Assembly: GCA_025936735.1 (NCBI GenBank) | Contig: JAICSU010000001.1 | Coordinates: 4,352 to 68,351 of the forward strand | Source: Amnibacterium sp. | Lineage (GTDB): Bacteria; Actinomycetota; Actinomycetes; Actinomycetales; Microbacteriaceae | Direction: 5' to 3' | DNA length: 64,000 bases | In this document: piece after piece, positions 23,677 through 29,416 of the stretch | How the letters are laid out: each line of letters begins with the position of its first letter | Position numbering within the stretch: position 1 is the stretch's first letter | Made by a program: the position numbers and the translations under genes | The notes under the pieces: model-generated | Seen by the model: only the letters and a program-made list of their open reading frames with translations | Told to the model about the DNA's origin: nothing | Database searches by the model: none

Positions 23677-24747
23677 CTACGGTGAGAGGATCGCGCTGAG
23701 GTCGGGATAGATCTCGTCCAGCTCGTTGGGGCGCCGGTGATCCAGCACGTCATCGAAGCGGGGAAGGCTGAAGTAGACGTTGCGCAGCTCGGTGCGCGCG
23801 GCCGCGAACTCGCCGCCGACGTCCACCCGCACCAGCCGCTTCGGCCCGGAGGTCCCGGGGAACGTGCGAGAACGAGCGACCCAGGCGCCCTCCGTCGGAC
23901 GGTTCCTGGTCCTCCCCAGAGGGCGGGATTCGGCGAGGTCGTCGCCCACGGGCCCCGCGCTCTCGCCCGGCGACTCATGCGCGCCCGGGGGATCGCAGAC
24001 CTCGTAGTACACGTGCACCGGCTGGGGATAGGAGCACGCCGGGAGGTACGCGACGAACCCGGCCCACTGCTCCCTCCCCGCCGGCCAGGCGATCGCGGCG
24101 GTGCGGGGATCCGAGAACCGGACCCCACCCTCCCGGAGGAGGGCGCGCGCCCCGTGATACGCCGGCTGGATCGGCGATCGCTGGACGAGTGAGAGGTTCT
24201 TCGCGAAGTCCGCTTCGCTCGACAGCGCCACGATCTGGTTCCGCAGCGCCAGCGTCGGATTGGTCGAACGGACGGCGACCGCGACGCGGCGTATCGCCAC
24301 CTCGGCCTCCGGGTCGTCGAAGCAGATGCGGAGGAGAACGCCCTCGCCACGACCGACCCGGCCTCGCACGAGATAAGGCACGCGGAACTCTCTGAAGTGG
24401 CTCGCGAGCGCGCCGGGCGCGAGAACCTGGGAGGCGCCGAGGTCGTCCACCTCCCCGCCCGTGATCGCCAGGAACTCCACCCTCAGCGTGTCCACGCCGC
24501 CCCGGATCAGCATCGCCTCGAACTCCACGAGCACGTCGTCTCCGGGACGGATGCCGAAGAAGGCCGACTCGATGCTCGGTCCGCTCGCCCCCGACTTCAG
24601 CCTGAAGGAGGACTCCATGGGGTGCGTGCAGAGGATCGATCCCGTTCGGGACCGGTCATGTGCGGAGCGATCGAACGTGACGGTCGGCGACCTCTGCGCC
24701 CCGAGCCCGGAGTTGAGCGGGACGATCAGCACCTGGTGCTCGATCAC
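23677..24747 (-). CDS. Hypothetical beta-rich cytoplasmic protein
   Basis: 356-aa ORF with GTGA coupling to the upstream GDPD; no family recognised. Confidence 0.65.
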   Translation of the reverse strand: MIEHQVLIVPLNSGLGAQRSPTVTFDRSAHDRSRTGSILCTHPMESSFRLKSGASGPSIESAFFGIRPGDDVLVEFEAMLIRGGVDTLRVEFLAITGGEVDDLGASQVLAPGALASHFREFRVPYLVRGRVGRGEGVLLRICFDDPEAEVAIRRVAVAVRSTNPTLALRNQIVALSSEADFAKNLSLVQRSPIQPAYHGARALLREGGVRFSDPRTAAIAWPAGREQWAGFVAYLPACSYPQPVHVYYEVCDPPGAHESPGESAGPVGDDLAESRPLGRTRNRPTEGAWVARSRTFPGTSGPKRLVRVDVGGEFAAARTELRNVYFSLPRFDDVLDHRRPNELDEIYPDLSAILSP

Positions 24748-25469
24748 CGGCGCCGCCCTCCCGGGAGCTCGCAATCCGTCTCGACGTACGCCACACCGGC
24801 TCGCGCCCATCGATCGGCATCGCGGAACGTGTCTGCCGCCCAGGCGTAGACGGGGATGCCGGCGGCGTTGCAGGCGCGGATCGCCTCCTCGGTGAGCGTC
24901 GACGAGCGGTAGGCGAGGATCGGGTGGCGGTGCCGCTCCCTCGCCACCGCGATGTCCTCGTGGACGGAGCCGACGTCGGTCGCCCAGATCACCGGGAGCT
25001 CCGGGACGACTCGAGCGAAGGTGACCCGGTCCTCCGCCGAGGGCAGCGAGATCGCCGACCGGTCCGCGATGCCGGCCGTGCGCAGCATCTCCCAGAGCTC
25101 CTCAGCGAGCGCGTCGCTCCACGGGAACTTGCCGCCGTCGACGTTCAGGCCCATTCCCCAGGAGCCGGCTTCGACCGCTGCCGACATGAAGCGGGGAGGG
25201 TGCAGCACCTCGTCGGGGTCCATCAGCGCCGGTTCGCTCACGATCCGGAGTCGATCCACCTCAGCGGCGTGGAGGGACGACAGGGGCCCCCTGCCATCCG
25301 TGGTCCGGTCGACCGTCTGATCGTGCATGAGGAACCAGACCCCGTCCGAGGAGATGGCCGGATCGACCTCGCACATGACGAAGCCGTGCCGGCCCGCTTC
25401 GGCGATCGCCTTGAGCGTGTTCTCGGGTCCCGCGGCCTGCAGGCCGCGGTGGCCGACGAAACCCATCAT
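24744..25469 (-). CDS. Glycerophosphodiester phosphodiesterase family protein
   Basis: FVGHRGL..PENT, CEVD, LMHDQTVDRTTDG, VETD; AAGGAG RBS. Confidence 0.85.
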   Translation of the reverse strand: MMGFVGHRGLQAAGPENTLKAIAEAGRHGFVMCEVDPAISSDGVWFLMHDQTVDRTTDGRGPLSSLHAAEVDRLRIVSEPALMDPDEVLHPPRFMSAAVEAGSWGMGLNVDGGKFPWSDALAEELWEMLRTAGIADRSAISLPSAEDRVTFARVVPELPVIWATDVGSVHEDIAVARERHRHPILAYRSSTLTEEAIRACNAAGIPVYAWAADTFRDADRWARAGVAYVETDCELPGGRRR

Positions 25470-25532
25470 CAAGCGGCTCCTTCATCGGACGGCATCTCCA
25501 TCACGGGTGCCCCCGGGAAGCCACCCCGCTCA

Positions 25533-25628: not shown

Positions 25629-26354
25629 TCAGGGCCGTCGGATCGGACGAGACCGCAGCAGCGCGACGACGGCGAGCGCGGCGGCGATGACCGCGAGCAC
25701 GAGCCCCGCGGCGGCGAGCACCGTCGCCACCGTCACGTCGCCCGCGCCGGCGGCGGGCTGCGCGCTCAAGCCGACCGTTCCCGTGGTGAGACGTTCGGTC
25801 GCGGGCGGGGCGTCGTCGACGTACAACACCGGGGCGGGCCGGTCGGGCTCCTCGCCGCTCGCTGGCGTTGCTTCGCCCCACGTCACGACCTTGCCGTCCG
25901 AGTAGGTCTGCGTCGTGGGGAAGGCGATCCGGCCCGTGTCGGGCATCGGGCCGACGCTCAGGACGAAGTCCTGGAACTGCCCGCCCGCGAGCTTGGTGCC
26001 GGGATCCGCCGTCCAGACGACGCGGAGGGGTGCCTCGGTGACCGTGGTGCCGTCCACCTTCGCCGGGCGCGGGAGCTTCCCGTCGACCACGGTCGCGGTC
26101 CATCCGGTCACCGGCTGGTAGGACACGTCGCCGAAGGGGGTCGCCGTCGGCAGGTCGATCACCACGCGGGTCGTGGTGGCGGCGCCCGACTCCGTCGGGA
26201 CCGAGAAGGTCAGCAGGGTGTCGTCGGCGCCGGCGACGGCCTGCTTCGGATAGACGCGGACGTGCGCGCTGGCCGACAGCGGCGCGGCGAGCACGAGGGC
26301 GACGGCCGCGAGCGCGGCGACACCGCCCCGGGACAGGAGCTTGGGTGATGACAT
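25629..26354 (-). CDS. ycnI: YcnI/DUF1775-family copper-binding membrane-anchored protein
   Basis: Signal peptide ending ASA|H, FSVPTE, QTYSDG.V.W, PAP, C-terminal TM; GAGGA RBS. Confidence 0.88.
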   Translation of the reverse strand: MSSPKLLSRGGVAALAAVALVLAAPLSASAHVRVYPKQAVAGADDTLLTFSVPTESGAATTTRVVIDLPTATPFGDVSYQPVTGWTATVVDGKLPRPAKVDGTTVTEAPLRVVWTADPGTKLAGGQFQDFVLSVGPMPDTGRIAFPTTQTYSDGKVVTWGEATPASGEEPDRPAPVLYVDDAPPATERLTTGTVGLSAQPAAGAGDVTVATVLAAAGLVLAVIAAALAVVALLRSRPIRRP

Positions 26355-26486
26355 GGGTTCCTCACACGACGGGGCCGCGCGGCGGCGGCCCGGTTCTGCA
26401 GTGGCGGCGCGCGGTCGCGCGCCCGTTGCCCCGGACTCACCGGGGAGGGATCAGTGCTGCGGAACCGGTACGGGAGGACCCCGTCT
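26355..26486 (-). promoter_or_regulatory. Putative translational attenuator pairing the RGPP/stop region with the ycnI initiation region
   Basis: 26477-26485 complementary to 26368-26376 (9 bp, one G-U); 26457-26468 to 26390-26401 (11/12); two internal hairpins. Confidence 0.55.
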
Positions 26487-27083
26487 GGCGCTCACCTCCA
26501 GCACGCGGGCGAGGTGGAACGACGGCACCGCCTCGATCCGGAGGAGCTGGAGGGACCGCCGTGGGGACGTGCCGCTGCGGATGCGCGCGGGGACGACCGC
26601 TCTGCGCAGCCGCGCGGCGAGGCCCGCGAGCGCCCAGAACGCCGCCTCGCCACGGTTCCACGCCAGGACAGTCAGCAGCGCCGCGGCGGCGTGCGCCAGC
26701 CACATGCCGGGCGCCGGCATGGGCATCGCCGGCATGGCCACGACGGGCCCGGTCCCCATCCCCGGCATCGCGGCCATCGGTGCGGGCGGAACCGGCATCG
26801 TGCTCCCCGGCGGGGTGGCCGCGAGCGTGAAGAGCGCGTGGAGCGCGCACTCCGAGAGGCCGATGACGAGCGCCTGCCGGAGAAGGGACAGCCGCCGGCC
26901 GATGAGCAGCACGGCGGGGAGCCACGAGAGCACGCAGACCGTCGCCACCAGCAGGACGGGCGGCATCGCTCCCCCTCCGGCGAGGTGGGAGGCGAGGGCG
27001 ACCAGCGTGGCGAAGGACGACCCTCCGACCGCGCGCGTGGCCCGCACCCGGCGGTGCGCGAGGTCGGCCGGGCCACCCGTCAC
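26451..27083 (-). CDS. Membrane protein with His-containing TMs, Met-rich loop and C-terminal RGPP motif (putative arrest leader)
   Basis: ASHLAGG, ALHALF, MWLAH; 8 Met in a Pro/Met loop; ends RRGPPVPVPQH*; TACGCT + 7 nt + GTG leaderless start. Confidence 0.75.
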   Translation of the reverse strand: MTGGPADLAHRRVRATRAVGGSSFATLVALASHLAGGGAMPPVLLVATVCVLSWLPAVLLIGRRLSLLRQALVIGLSECALHALFTLAATPPGSTMPVPPAPMAAMPGMGTGPVVAMPAMPMPAPGMWLAHAAAALLTVLAWNRGEAAFWALAGLAARLRRAVVPARIRSGTSPRRSLQLLRIEAVPSFHLARVLEVSARRGPPVPVPQH

Positions 27084-27213
27084 GGCGTCCAGCGTAGGGC
27101 GGCCGGTCCGCGGGCCTGCCGAGGTGCTCTCGGCGGCCACATCGTCGGTGATCCGCTCGGACCGTTCAGGCAACGGCCCGCCCCCGCCCAGGTCGCCCCG
27201 GCACCATGACGGG

Positions 27214-27342: not shown

Positions 27343-27792
27343 TCACGCCTGCCGCGCGGTGAACCGGTAGACGTTCGTGTTCCGCAGCTCGAAGCCGAGC
27401 CGCTGGTAGAGGCGGTTCGCAGCCTCCCTGCTCGGACGCGACGTGAGATCGACCGTGCGGGCCCCTGCCTCGAACGCGAGGTCCAGCGCGCGGCGCACGA
27501 GCAGCGCACCGACGCCGCCGCCCCGCACCCCCTCGTCCACGACGACGTCCTCGATCCAGGCGCGCACGCCCGTCGGGATGGCGAACACCGCGAGGGTGAG
27601 CATGCCCACCGCCCGGCCCTCCGCGGACTCGGCGACGAGGAGGTGCGTCGCCTCGGCGGACGCGATCGCCTGCCACTGGGCCCGGGTCGGCGCGGGACTG
27701 GAGCTCGACAGCTGCGGCACGAGGGCTGCGAGGGCGCTCGCGAGCTCCTCCGAGACGTCGTCGACCACGGTCACTCGGTAGGGCGCGTCCAT
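27343..27792 (-). CDS. GNAT-family N-acetyltransferase
   Basis: IEDVVVDEGVRGGGVG, VDLTSRPSREAANRLYQRLGF; leaderless TACCGT. Confidence 0.9.
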   Translation of the reverse strand: MDAPYRVTVVDDVSEELASALAALVPQLSSSSPAPTRAQWQAIASAEATHLLVAESAEGRAVGMLTLAVFAIPTGVRAWIEDVVVDEGVRGGGVGALLVRRALDLAFEAGARTVDLTSRPSREAANRLYQRLGFELRNTNVYRFTARQA

Positions 27793-27907
27793 CCGGCACA
27801 CGGTAGCGGCGGCCGTCCCGGAGCCGCCTGTGGGCCCGCTCGACGGGATCGCGCACGGCCGCGTCCGGCGGTGCACCATGGGACCGCAGCGAGACCGGGA
27901 GGAGCCC

Positions 27908-29416
27908 ATGGAGCGCGACGAGCCGGAGCATCTCCACGTGCTCATCGTGGGCGCCGGGATCTCCGGCATCGGAGCGGCTCACGCGCTGTCGACGCGACTC
28001 CCCGCCAAGCGGTTCGTCGTGCTCGAGGCCCGCGACTCGATCGGCGGGACGTGGGACCTCTTCCGATACCCGGGCATCCGCTCCGACTCCGACCTGACCA
28101 CGTTCGGCTTCGAGTTCAAGCCGTGGACCGATCGGAAGGTCATCGCGGACGGCGAGCGGATCCTCGCCTACCTGCGCGACGTCGTGTCCGAGTACCGGCT
28201 CGAGCGCTTCTTCCGGTTCCGCGAGCGCGTCGTGGAAGCCGCCTGGGATGCCGGGGCGGCCAGGTGGACGGTGGTCTCCGAGGACACGGGAACGGGGAAG
28301 CGCACGACGCGCACCTGCGACTGGCTCTTCGCGGCGGGCGGCTACTACCGGTACGACCGCGGCTACACGCCGGAGATCGAGGGGCTCGACCGCTTCGCCG
28401 GCCCCGTGGTCCACCCCCAGCAGTGGCCGGAGCATCTCGACACCCGCGACAAGGAGGTCGTGGTGATCGGCAGCGGCGCGACGGCCGTGACGATCGTGCC
28501 CGCCCTCGCGCGGGAGGGCGCCAGGGTCACGATGCTGCAGCGCACCCCCACCTACGTCCTCTCGCTCCCCTCGGAGGACGGCTTCGCCGTCCGCCTCCGG
28601 CGCCTGGTCGGCGACCGGAGGGCGCACGCCCTGCTCAGGCGACGCAGCATCGCGATCCAGCGGACCCTCTGGGTGCTCGCGAAGCGCCGACCGAGACTGG
28701 TGCGGCGGTTCATCCGCTTCCTCGCCGTGCGGCAGCTGCCCGACGGCTACCCGGTGGACGTGCACTTCAACCCGCCGTACGGACCCTGGGACCAGCGACT
28801 CTGCTTCGTGCCGGACGGCGACCTGTTCCGCGCGATCAGCGACGGGAGCGCCGAGGTGGTCACCGCGCGGATCCGCCGGGTGACCCAGCACGGGATCGAG
28901 CTGGAGGACGGCCGCACGCTTCCGGCGGACGTGATCGTCACCGCCACCGGCCTCGAGGTGCAGCCCTTCGGCGGCTTCCCGATGATCGTCGACGGCTCCC
29001 CCGTGCAGCTGTCCGAGACCGTCGCCTACAAGGGCCTGATGCTCTCGGGCGTGCCGAACTTCGCGTTCTCCATCGGCTACACGAACGCCTCGTGGACGCT
29101 CAAGGTGGGCCTCGTCTGCGAGTACCTCGTGCGGCTGCTCGAGCACATGGGTCGGCACGGCTACGCCGTGGTCGAGCCGCGGCTGCCGGAAGGCGGGATG
29201 GCGACCCGTCCCCTGCTCGACTTCGGCGCCGGGTACGTCCGGCGTGCCCTCGACCGGTTGCCCAAGCAGGGCCCGCGGGTGCCGTGGGTGACCTCGACCG
29301 CCTACGGGGACGACGTGCGCCTGCTGCGCCGCGGGCCCGTCGCGGATCGGCACCTCGTGTTCACGGCACGAGCGCCGCGGGCACCGGTCGCCGCGGAGGC
29401 GGCGGCCGGCCGCTGA
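27908..29416 (+). CDS. Flavin-containing Baeyer-Villiger monooxygenase (EthA-like)
   Basis: GAGISG, GGTWDLFRYPGIRSDSD, FAGPVVHPQQWP, GSGATA, ATG motifs. Confidence 0.92.
   Translation: MERDEPEHLHVLIVGAGISGIGAAHALSTRLPAKRFVVLEARDSIGGTWDLFRYPGIRSDSDLTTFGFEFKPWTDRKVIADGERILAYLRDVVSEYRLERFFRFRERVVEAAWDAGAARWTVVSEDTGTGKRTTRTCDWLFAAGGYYRYDRGYTPEIEGLDRFAGPVVHPQQWPEHLDTRDKEVVVIGSGATAVTIVPALAREGARVTMLQRTPTYVLSLPSEDGFAVRLRRLVGDRRAHALLRRRSIAIQRTLWVLAKRRPRLVRRFIRFLAVRQLPDGYPVDVHFNPPYGPWDQRLCFVPDGDLFRAISDGSAEVVTARIRRVTQHGIELEDGRTLPADVIVTATGLEVQPFGGFPMIVDGSPVQLSETVAYKGLMLSGVPNFAFSIGYTNASWTLKVGLVCEYLVRLLEHMGRHGYAVVEPRLPEGGMATRPLLDFGAGYVRRALDRLPKQGPRVPWVTSTAYGDDVRLLRRGPVADRHLVFTARAPRAPVAAEAAAGR

What the first reader, a model, noticed from the sequence alone, without database searches (positions are those of the whole stretch)
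25629..27096. Candidate copper-sensing ribosome-arrest leader (membrane protein ending RGPP) controlling ycnI
Seen: a leaderless 210-aa membrane ORF (27083-26451) has three His in hydrophobic segments, a loop with 8 Met, about 43 polar residues after the last hydrophobic stretch, and ends RRGPPVPVPQH*. Its stop is 96 nt upstream of ycnI. Established: RAPP/RGPP-like C-terminal motifs stall ribosomes (SecM RAGP, ApdA/ApdP), and the copper-responsive leaders CruR and CutF pair a CxxC with a Pro-rich tail; YcnI binds Cu. Inference: a CxxC-free membrane analogue in which Cu binding or membrane folding pulls on the nascent chain and releases the stall, so ycnI is translated when Cu is scarce. The 43-aa spacer fits the exit tunnel. 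I am not aware of this being characterised in Actinobacteria.
Basis: partly seen in the sequence, partly recalled or inferred. Interest (0 to 1): 0.85.

Follow-up and report, generated by a model that had tools for sequence, protein, structure and literature searches.

The report
RGPP ribosome-stalling leader before ycnI
The gene ahead of the copper-binding gene ycnI encodes a predicted four-helix membrane protein ending in the strictly conserved motif Arg-Gly-Pro-Pro; it likely stalls its own ribosome and probably lets ycnI be made when copper is scarce, and it is a new member of a kind of leader published in December 2025.

Summary
The 210-aa ORF (27083-26451, minus strand) ends RRGPPVPVPQH, 96 nt before ycnI. 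In 150 aligned homologues RGPP, His82, Met127 and His131 are invariant and His33 is kept in 149; His131 lies 64-76 residues before the Arg. First downstream genes in 59 loci are YcnI, CopC/CopD or PCuAC in 51. The claim that this is uncharacterised in Actinobacteria is wrong: Fujiwara et al. (EMBO J 2025, PMC12992588) described transmembrane RGPP leaders before YcnI genes and showed RGPP-dependent arrest for Streptomyces lividans SLIV_18480 (four helices, three His, one Met). The Streptomyces proteins that match its description align with this family (profile probability 99%). Copper sensing, its direction and control of the downstream gene are untested in the papers I found. Added here, all by inference: the His/Met site faces outward; leaders before SigC-like sigma factors and DsbA-like genes are the same family; the DsbA branch lost two of four ligands and has a Cys pair; the intergenic RNA is C-rich (Rho-like), while an anti-Shine-Dalgarno switch is weakly supported. 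The scan found this class before on other DNA. New member of a known kind.

The parts
27091..27096 (-). Likely -10 promoter box (TACGCT), 7 nt before the start codon: leaderless transcript
   Evidence: Sequence; pattern in 28 of 55 homologous loci vs 1 of 645 control codons. No transcript data.
26451..27083 (-). Leader ORF, 210 aa, four predicted membrane helices, no Pfam or NCBIfam family
   Evidence: model pLDDT 82, helices 5-35, 43-60, 67-89, 125-163; 4872 relatives at the 50% cluster level
26985..26987 (-). His33, outer end of helix 1, predicted metal ligand
   Evidence: 149 of 150
26838..26840 (-). His82, outer end of helix 3, predicted metal ligand
   Evidence: 150 of 150
26706..26819 (-). 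Met-rich loop (residues 89-126), predicted outside the cell; His- or Met-rich in homologues
   Evidence: His+Met >=3 in 148 of 150; median K+R 0
26691..26705 (-). Met127-x3-His131 at the outer start of helix 4, predicted metal ligands
   Evidence: Both 150 of 150
26484..26645 (-). Cytoplasmic helix and spacer (residues 147-200): sequence variable, length conserved
   Evidence: Glu146 to Arg201 49-61 residues, sd 1.9, n=144
26472..26483 (-). RGPP codons, the likely stall site; in this locus they are also predicted to pair with the ycnI ribosome-binding site
   Evidence: 150 of 150; fold
26355..26450 (-). 96-nt intergenic region, C42/G35, three predicted G+C hairpins, no U-tract terminator, no sigma-70-like promoter match
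26359..26363 (-). Shine-Dalgarno-like GAGGA of ycnI
25629..26354 (-). ycnI (DUF1775): signal peptide, His31/Glu55/Trp159 aligned with the same residues of B. subtilis YcnI, C-terminal membrane anchor
   Evidence: Pfam E 4.7e-39; PDB 3esm E 1.2e-24, 7me6 E 7e-08 with alignment; copper binding of B. subtilis YcnI from PMC8424229 passages

Best explanation
The ORF encodes a predicted four-helix membrane protein ending in an invariant RGPP motif; it likely stalls its own ribosome there while tethered in the membrane, and copper bound at a predicted outward-facing His33/His82/Met127/His131 site would release the stall, so that ycnI is probably expressed when copper is scarce and shut off when it is plentiful. 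Steps: (1) a leaderless transcript covers leader and ycnI (inferred); (2) the four helices insert with both ends inside, and the ribosome pauses at RGPP about 55 residues past helix 4 (arrest shown for Streptomyces relatives, inferred here, about 0.9); (3) without copper the stall lasts and the ribosome covers the last codons of the leader, keeping ycnI expression on; (4) copper binding tightens the bundle and the cytoplasmic helix 147-163, pulls on the chain, and the ribosome finishes six codons later (inferred, about 0.6); (5) the freed RNA shuts ycnI off, by Rho-dependent termination on the C-rich intergenic RNA (about 0.45), by pairing of the RGPP codons with the ycnI ribosome-binding site (about 0.35), or both or another route (about 0.2).
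For: Invariant RGPP, His82, Met127, His131 in 150 of 150 and His33 in 149. His131-to-Arg distance 64-76, sd 1.9, while the loop before it varies from 37 to 83. Positive-inside pattern: median K+R 3, 0, 3, 0, 4 for N-terminus, loop 1, loop 2, loop 3, tail, placing all four ligands outside. First same-strand downstream gene in 30 class-wide loci, own included: YcnI 13, CopC 6, PCuAC 4, PepSY_TM 3, ECF sigma 3, BlaI-like 1; in 29 closer loci: YcnI 17, CopC 9, CopD 1, PCuAC 1, PepSY_TM 1; no efflux ATPase or multicopper oxidase among these 59. All 6 ECF genes scanned score best to the SigC and PRK12535 models (E about 1e-50, below the curated cut-offs), and SigC prevents copper starvation (PMC7924339, listing and passages). 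Internal control: in 20 leaders of the DsbA-linked branch His82 is Asp in 20, the Met127 position is Leu in 20, and two Cys are invariant (8 of 19 downstream genes scanned, all thioredoxin-like). Profile match to 80 Streptomyces leaders of the sco-operon type: probability 99%, E 7e-18. [quoted passage not shown] CruR gives the precedent for stall-on, copper-off (PMC9426467 passages). Intergenic C>G in 52 of 53 loci vs 63% of 241 control gene pairs and 48 of 50 vs 60% after the next gene's stop in the same loci, p 3e-4; a rho gene is present in two pieces at contig ends.
Against: No experiment on this protein; none that I found shows copper binding or downstream control for any member, and the authors' reporter for downstream expression failed in B. 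subtilis (peer-review file). Profiles that contain RGPP favour hits that have it. The single protein does not find the Streptomyces leaders (phmmer 0 of 80) and their profile does not find it with the default composition correction (E 1.4e-5 without), so the link is distant. SLIV_18480 itself was not available as a sequence. Its type has a longer loop with a Cys pair and a His-to-Arg distance of 81-89, not 70. CutF shows the opposite logic, copper-induced stalling (abstracts). The anti-SD effect is weak family-wide and absent in the two closest same-genus loci (L141 -0.6, L147 0.1 kcal/mol). There is no C preference at synonymous sites of the spacer (0.51 vs 0.60 in the downstream gene), and the own intergenic region is only mildly C-rich and hairpin-rich. 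Loci are related, so p-values overstate. In this genome ycnI has no copC/copD beside it; the one copC found lies elsewhere without a leader.
Confidence: 0.58

Rival explanations
1. Same arrest leader and copper site, opposite logic as in CutF: copper holds the ribosome at RGPP, and ycnI is made when copper is high, to bind it outside the cell.
For: CutF precedent for extracytoplasmic sensing with copper-induced stalling and opening of a ribosome-binding site; predicted pairing of the RGPP codons with the ycnI site here.
Against: Downstream genes are uptake and delivery types plus SigC-like sigma factors, with no efflux or oxidase gene in 59 loci; RGPP arrests strongly without copper in the published reporters, which lacked the sensor domain.
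Confidence: 0.12
2. Arrest leader that senses another metal, or general metal or redox status of the cell wall space, rather than copper specifically.
For: His-rich sites bind several metals (general knowledge); 4 of 59 loci lead PepSY_TM genes and 1 a BlaI-like gene; the DsbA branch shows the scaffold can be re-tuned.
Against: 51 of 59 first downstream genes are copper-binding families; a PepSY_TM protein, CrpH, is itself induced by copper starvation (PMC13038864 abstract); an invariant Met suits copper (general knowledge).
Confidence: 0.12
3. A membrane-insertion monitor like MifM or SecM: the pull comes from the Sec/YidC machinery, so the leader matches ycnI synthesis to export capacity and the His residues are structural.
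For: Known RAPP-type peptides monitor protein localisation; most downstream products are exported; spacer length is conserved.
Against: Helix 4 is 55 or more residues from the stall and would already be inserted; no sec or yidC gene among the downstream genes; ligand set changes with the downstream gene class.
Confidence: 0.1
4. The finished protein is a working part of copper uptake (a small carrier or partner of YcnI) and RGPP only limits how much is made, without gating the next gene.
For: Well-folded bundle (pLDDT above 85 over the helices) with a His/Met loop like those of copper carriers; downstream control has not been shown.
Against: Same protein sits before sigma factors, DsbA-like and BlaI-like genes; it is first in the unit, with a 30-250 nt gap and a fixed spacer; RGPP is strongly avoided in proteomes.
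Confidence: 0.08

Closest known systems
SLIV_18480 of Streptomyces lividans and the class 'transmembrane RGPP/RAPP uORFs before YcnI-family genes' (Fujiwara et al. 2025, PMC12992588)
   Same: Four helices, three conserved His plus one Met, C-terminal RGPP, position before a YcnI-type gene. Streptomyces leaders before ycnI-sco-pcuAC-copCD-dyp align His for His; one from a named S. anthocyanicus record (P0195) has Cys40, Cys130, Arg276 against the paper's Cys40, Cys127, Arg273. A Microbacterium-type row in the paper's source table, before copC, shows the family's motifs by eye.
   Different: Shorter (210 vs about 285 aa), no conserved Cys pair, Met-rich loop, spacer 70 vs 81-89 residues, about 25% profile identity; lone ycnI here instead of the full sco operon. 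Arrest not tested for this protein.
CruR of Bordetella pertussis (DUF2946; PMC9426467)
   Same: First gene of a copper-uptake unit, C-terminal R[AG]PP arrest, conserved sensor-to-motif spacing, C-rich RNA before the next gene; likely same logic.
   Different: CxxC sensor, signal peptide, 45-residue spacing, proposed cytoplasmic sensing; no DUF2946 match and no CxxC here.
CutF of Rhodobacter capsulatus (DUF2946-like; bioRxiv 10.1101/2022.11.11.516240, 10.1101/2025.02.05.636593)
   Same: Senses copper outside the cytoplasm through a ribosome-tethered chain; stall coupled to the next gene.
   Different: Exported soluble sensor, proline-run stall, copper induces the stall and a detoxifying oxidase; here a polytopic membrane protein before uptake-type genes.
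ApdA, ApdP, SecM (RAPP/RAGP arrest peptides)
   Same: Core arrest motif near the C-terminus, release thought to need a pull.
   Different: They precede sec genes and monitor protein export; no sequence relation tested beyond the motif.
SLIV_33595, SLIV_33605 (before ECF sigma genes) and SLIV_27375 (before a thioredoxin-domain gene)
   Same: Four helices and RGPP; leaders with the same gene context are hit by this family's profile (DsbA branch probability 96.6%). L040 has Cys87/Cys108 against the paper's Cys88/Cys109.
   Different: Different downstream gene; DsbA branch lacks two of the four ligands.

Membership tests
Transmembrane RGPP/RAPP uORFs before YcnI-family genes (SLIV_18480 type) | Protein under 300 aa with RGPP or RAPP near the C-terminus, conserved | tested here: met
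   210 aa, motif 6 residues from the end; 150 of 150
Transmembrane RGPP/RAPP uORFs before YcnI-family genes (SLIV_18480 type) | Four transmembrane segments | tested here: met
   Four helices in the model, hydropathy and positive-inside pattern; prediction only
Transmembrane RGPP/RAPP uORFs before YcnI-family genes (SLIV_18480 type) | Three conserved His and one Met | tested here: met
   H33 149, H82 150, M127 150, H131 150 of 150; align with those of Streptomyces leaders
Transmembrane RGPP/RAPP uORFs before YcnI-family genes (SLIV_18480 type) | Same-strand YcnI-family or other copper gene directly downstream | tested here: met
   51 of 59 loci
Transmembrane RGPP/RAPP uORFs before YcnI-family genes (SLIV_18480 type) | Sequence homology to SLIV_18480 | tested here: inconclusive
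   Met for stand-ins matching its gene context and residue numbers (P 99% and 97.7%); the SLIV_18480 sequence itself was not obtained; the paper's appendix was too large to read
Transmembrane RGPP/RAPP uORFs before YcnI-family genes (SLIV_18480 type) | Cys40/Cys127 pair (specific to SLIV_18480 and close orthologues) | tested here: not met
   Cys50 and Cys79 here are not conserved. So same family, not the same subfamily
Transmembrane RGPP/RAPP uORFs before YcnI-family genes (SLIV_18480 type) | RGPP-dependent translation arrest | not testable with these tools
   Needs toeprint or reporter; shown for seven S. lividans proteins
CruR / CutF (DUF2946) | DUF2946 domain with CxxC | tested here: not met
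   No Pfam match at E<=1; CxxC in 0 of 150
CruR / CutF (DUF2946) | Conserved spacing from metal motif to arrest motif | tested here: met
   70 residues, sd 1.9, against 45 in CruR: like in kind, not in length
CruR / CutF (DUF2946) | Rho-dependent termination between leader and next gene (CruR) | tested here: inconclusive
   C>G bias in intergenic RNA; rho present; no transcript data
CruR / CutF (DUF2946) | Stem-loop hiding the next gene's ribosome-binding site, opened by the stall (CutF) | tested here: inconclusive
   2.6 kcal/mol here; family median 1.6 vs 0.1 in controls, p 0.026 after dropping 16 of 69 loci; not kept in nearest kin
Sec/YidC monitoring substrates (SecM, MifM, ApdA, ApdP) | Encoded before a sec or yidC gene | tested here: not met
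   0 of 59 loci

The most novel reading that the evidence does not exclude
This is one member of a single, very large actinobacterial family of ribosome-tethered membrane receptors (about 4,900 clusters at 50% identity, no Pfam model) that read the outside of the cell through a four-helix bundle and report through a fixed-length tether to an RGPP stall. The His3Met form is a main copper-scarcity switch of these bacteria: it gates ycnI, copC, pcuAC and the sco operon directly and whole regulons through SigC-like sigma factors that have no anti-sigma; a branch that lost two ligands and carries a Cys pair reads disulfide-forming capacity before DsbA-like genes; output is by Rho on C-rich intergenic RNA.
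Probability: 0.35. Interest if true: 0.65.

Novelty: new member of a known kind. Interest (0 to 1): 0.32.

Why it matters
The locus itself is one more example of a class published in December 2025. What could matter is the open part: the paper asks whether these arrests control the next gene, by what route, and what pulls on the chain. The comparisons here give testable answers: four named ligands on the outer face, a 70-residue ruler, a natural ligand swap in the DsbA branch, SigC-like sigma factors as targets, and C-rich RNA pointing to Rho. If right, many actinobacteria sense copper shortage across the membrane with a nascent protein instead of a transcription factor.

Tried and rejected
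Conserved anti-Shine-Dalgarno switch in the RGPP codons: predicted here, but only 9 of 40 diverse loci use CCT at the first Pro; opening-energy gain over all 69 loci scored has median 0.67 kcal/mol (3 more had no start call), 1.6 over 53 after dropping 13 with evidently wrong start calls and 3 with gaps under 40 nt, vs 0.1 in 110 of 241 control pairs; 17 of 200 synonymous versions of the own locus close the site as much. Not accepted as the family mechanism. Synonymous C bias in the spacer: none. Intrinsic terminator or sigma-70-type promoter in the region: 0 found, but the scan also misses the leader's own likely promoter. Fold searches: no Foldseek match at E<=0.001, best Z 6.8 among unrelated helical proteins: no known fold assigned, none excluded. 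Pfam and NCBIfam: no family. Expression: no RNA holder listed among 24 runs; DNA contigs of four soil runs cover the stretch in pieces and add nothing on function. The SLIV_18480 sequence was not found in the readable supplements. A scan with alignment A1 could not run for lack of a conserved stretch. PMC6177595 (copper-deprivation stimulon of Corynebacterium) is not held. Two other near-terminal RAPP hits in the own genome look like chance. A tree of 41 leaders on the helix core shows downstream classes interleaved, with weak deep support; no order of events is claimed. No complex prediction was run.

Full report
Observation. A 210-codon ORF runs 27083-26451 on the minus strand from a GTG and ends RRGPPVPVPQH. 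The RGPP codons are 26483-26472, the ycnI ATG is at 26354, the gap is 96 nt. The downstream protein is DUF1775 (E 4.7e-39) and aligns with B. subtilis YcnI at the mature N-terminal His, the Glu and the Trp; that YcnI binds Cu(II) is from passages of PMC8424229. The leader has no Pfam or NCBIfam match. TACGCT lies 7 nt before the GTG; 28 of 55 homologous loci scored show TANNNT 5-8 nt before a start codon, against 1 of 645 internal start-like codons, so the leaderless start is well supported though not measured. The best named relatives are from Microbacteriaceae and the DNA occurs in soil metagenomes.

Family. A single-sequence search gave 43 proteins; their profile gave 4872 representatives at E<=0.001 and matches in 57 of 201 genomes of the class and, with the larger profile, 45 of 81 closer genomes. 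In an alignment of 150 (35 from the first search including the query, 115 of the listed best from the second) His82, Phe85, Met127, His131, Thr138 and R-G-P-P are invariant and His33 is kept in 149. R[AG]PP is present in 184 of 185 proteins held, the miss being truncated, in 30 of 30 loci and 30 of 30 (the own locus is in both). Because the profiles contain the motif these counts are somewhat flattered, but it is 4 of 205 positions. The His131-to-Arg201 distance is 64-76 (sd 1.9) although the sequence between is not conserved, while the His82-to-His131 loop varies from 37 to 83. No member of the 150 has CxxC.

Anatomy. The model (mean pLDDT 82) has helices at 5-35, 43-60, 67-89 and 125-163. 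Median Lys+Arg counts of 3, 0, 3, 0, 4 for the N-terminus, loops 1-3 and the tail imply both ends inside, which puts His33, His82, Met127, His131 and the Met-rich loop on the outer face (inference from the positive-inside rule). The loop holds three or more His+Met in 148 of 150. At the stall, helix 4 is 55 residues from the catalytic centre, more than the 30-40 residues a tunnel holds (general knowledge), so the bundle would be inserted and able to meet outside copper while still tied to the ribosome. Fold searches gave nothing clear.

Neighbours. First same-strand downstream genes: YcnI 13, CopC 6, PCuAC 4, PepSY_TM 3, ECF sigma 3, BlaI-like 1 in 30 class-wide loci, own included; YcnI 17, CopC 9, CopD 1, PCuAC 1, PepSY_TM 1 in 29 closer loci. 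These were the best-scoring match per genome, not all matches. Ten further loci that I chose from Streptomyces-family genomes lead ycnI (5; one traced through sco, pcuAC, copCD, dyp), ECF sigma genes (3) or thioredoxin-like genes (2). All six ECF proteins scanned score best to the SigC and PRK12535 models, E about 1e-50, below the curated cut-offs but far above the next models. SigC of M. tuberculosis prevents copper starvation and has no known anti-sigma (PMC7924339, listing and passages; PMC8999054 passages). Leaders before these sigma genes keep all four ligands (6 of 6). In the branch before DsbA-like genes, His82 is Asp and the Met position is Leu in 20 of 20, with two invariant Cys. That the ligand set changes with the downstream gene is the best indirect sign that it is the sensor.

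What is already known. Fujiwara et al. 2025 (PMC12992588; I read the abstract, sections 13, 14, 15, passages of the peer-review file, rows of the Figure 4 source table and the Figure 5 source data) report that small RGPP/RAPP proteins are enriched before YcnI-family, PCu(A)C and PepSY genes, that those before YcnI are mostly membrane proteins, and that seven S. lividans proteins arrest in an RGPP/RAPP-dependent way. SLIV_18480 has four predicted helices and a predicted copper site of three His and one Met; its reporter rises from 1.78 to 19.13 units on R273A. They propose metal sensing and leave downstream control open; their downstream reporters failed in B. subtilis. The appendix and three archives were too large to read and may already hold part of what I add. 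I could not obtain SLIV_18480, so I used stand-ins: 80 leaders from named Streptomyces-type records, 79 with RGPP and most with a Cys at or near position 40, matching the S. coelicolor order 3968 membrane protein, 3967, sco (PMC3603459 passages). Their profile aligns with ours at 99% probability, E 7e-18, His to His and RGPP to RGPP. P0195, named S. anthocyanicus (that S. lividans is filed under this species in GTDB is recalled), has Cys40, Cys130, Arg276, a three-residue shift from the paper's Cys40, Cys127, Arg273, and matches our profile at 97.7%. Against this, the single protein finds none of the 80, and their profile finds it only without composition correction. So: same family, different subfamily. 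By context and numbering the other three four-helix S. lividans peptides look like members too; the sections I read treat them separately. Searches turned up no paper testing copper response of these leaders.

How the stall could reach ycnI. In this locus the RGPP codons pair with the ycnI ribosome-binding site in the predicted fold, and masking by a stalled ribosome raises its mean unpaired probability from 0.19 to 0.65, a gain of 2.6 kcal/mol. But the gain is -0.6 and 0.1 in the two closest same-genus loci, the family median is 0.67 over 69 loci or 1.6 over 53 curated ones against 0.1 in 110 controls (p 0.026), and 17 of 200 synonymous versions close the site as well. The intergenic RNA is C-rich in 52 of 53 loci against 63% of 241 control pairs from the own genome and in 48 of 50 against 60% for the stretch after the next gene in the same loci, as in CruR, where a released ribosome lets Rho terminate (PMC9426467 passages). 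A rho gene is present in two pieces. Against this: no synonymous C bias in the spacer, a modest skew of 0.12 and three hairpins in the own gap, related loci, and the chance that untranslated leaders are C-rich for other reasons. The route is undecided.

Direction. Downstream genes are uptake and delivery types and none is an efflux pump or oxidase, which favours stall-on under copper shortage as in CruR. CutF does the opposite (abstracts), so this remains an inference.

Earlier notes of this scan describe the same class in other genomes and name the same paper, which I had found; one also found the anti-SD switch unsupported.

Verdict. Real, conserved and very likely an arrest leader (about 0.9); copper-released with ycnI on under shortage about 0.58. 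New member of a known kind; interest 0.32.

Noticed in passing
L024, L026, L027, L031, L034, L038: Homologous leaders with all four ligands sit before SigC-like ECF sigma genes; a possible way for sigma factors without anti-sigma to respond to copper shortage.
   Followed up: partly
L040, L161-L179: Branch before DsbA-like thioredoxin genes: His82 to Asp, Met127 to Leu, invariant Cys pair in the outer loop, RGPP in 19 of 19 new loci.
   Followed up: partly
L013:796-1425 (-): A leader of this family 27 nt before a BlaI/CopY-like repressor gene; its nearest relatives in the tree lead PepSY_TM genes.
   Followed up: no
L028; also G003:C11 and G699:C7: Two leaders of the family back to back on opposite strands, each pointing to its own downstream gene.
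   Followed up: no
L159:1402-2001 (G000 contig C200): The one copC found in this genome lies apart from ycnI, overlapping the stop of a beta-lactamase-family gene, with no leader.
   Followed up: partly
same-genus genomes: The leader was found in only 5 of 17 other genomes of the genus, against 25 of 31 in other genera of the family: patchy within the genus.
   Followed up: no
window 24744-25472 (-), 27343-27780 (-), 27830-29416 (+): Flanking genes: glycerophosphodiester phosphodiesterase, GNAT acetyltransferase, flavin monooxygenase-like; no copper link seen.
   Followed up: partly
window 23677-24810 (-): 377-aa ORF without a Pfam match.
   Followed up: no
G000 contigs C153 and C31: rho is split over two contig ends, probably an assembly break.
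   Followed up: no
L169 (G678:C77:89327-89974): One TAG inside the match to the DsbA-branch leader; position not examined.
   Followed up: no
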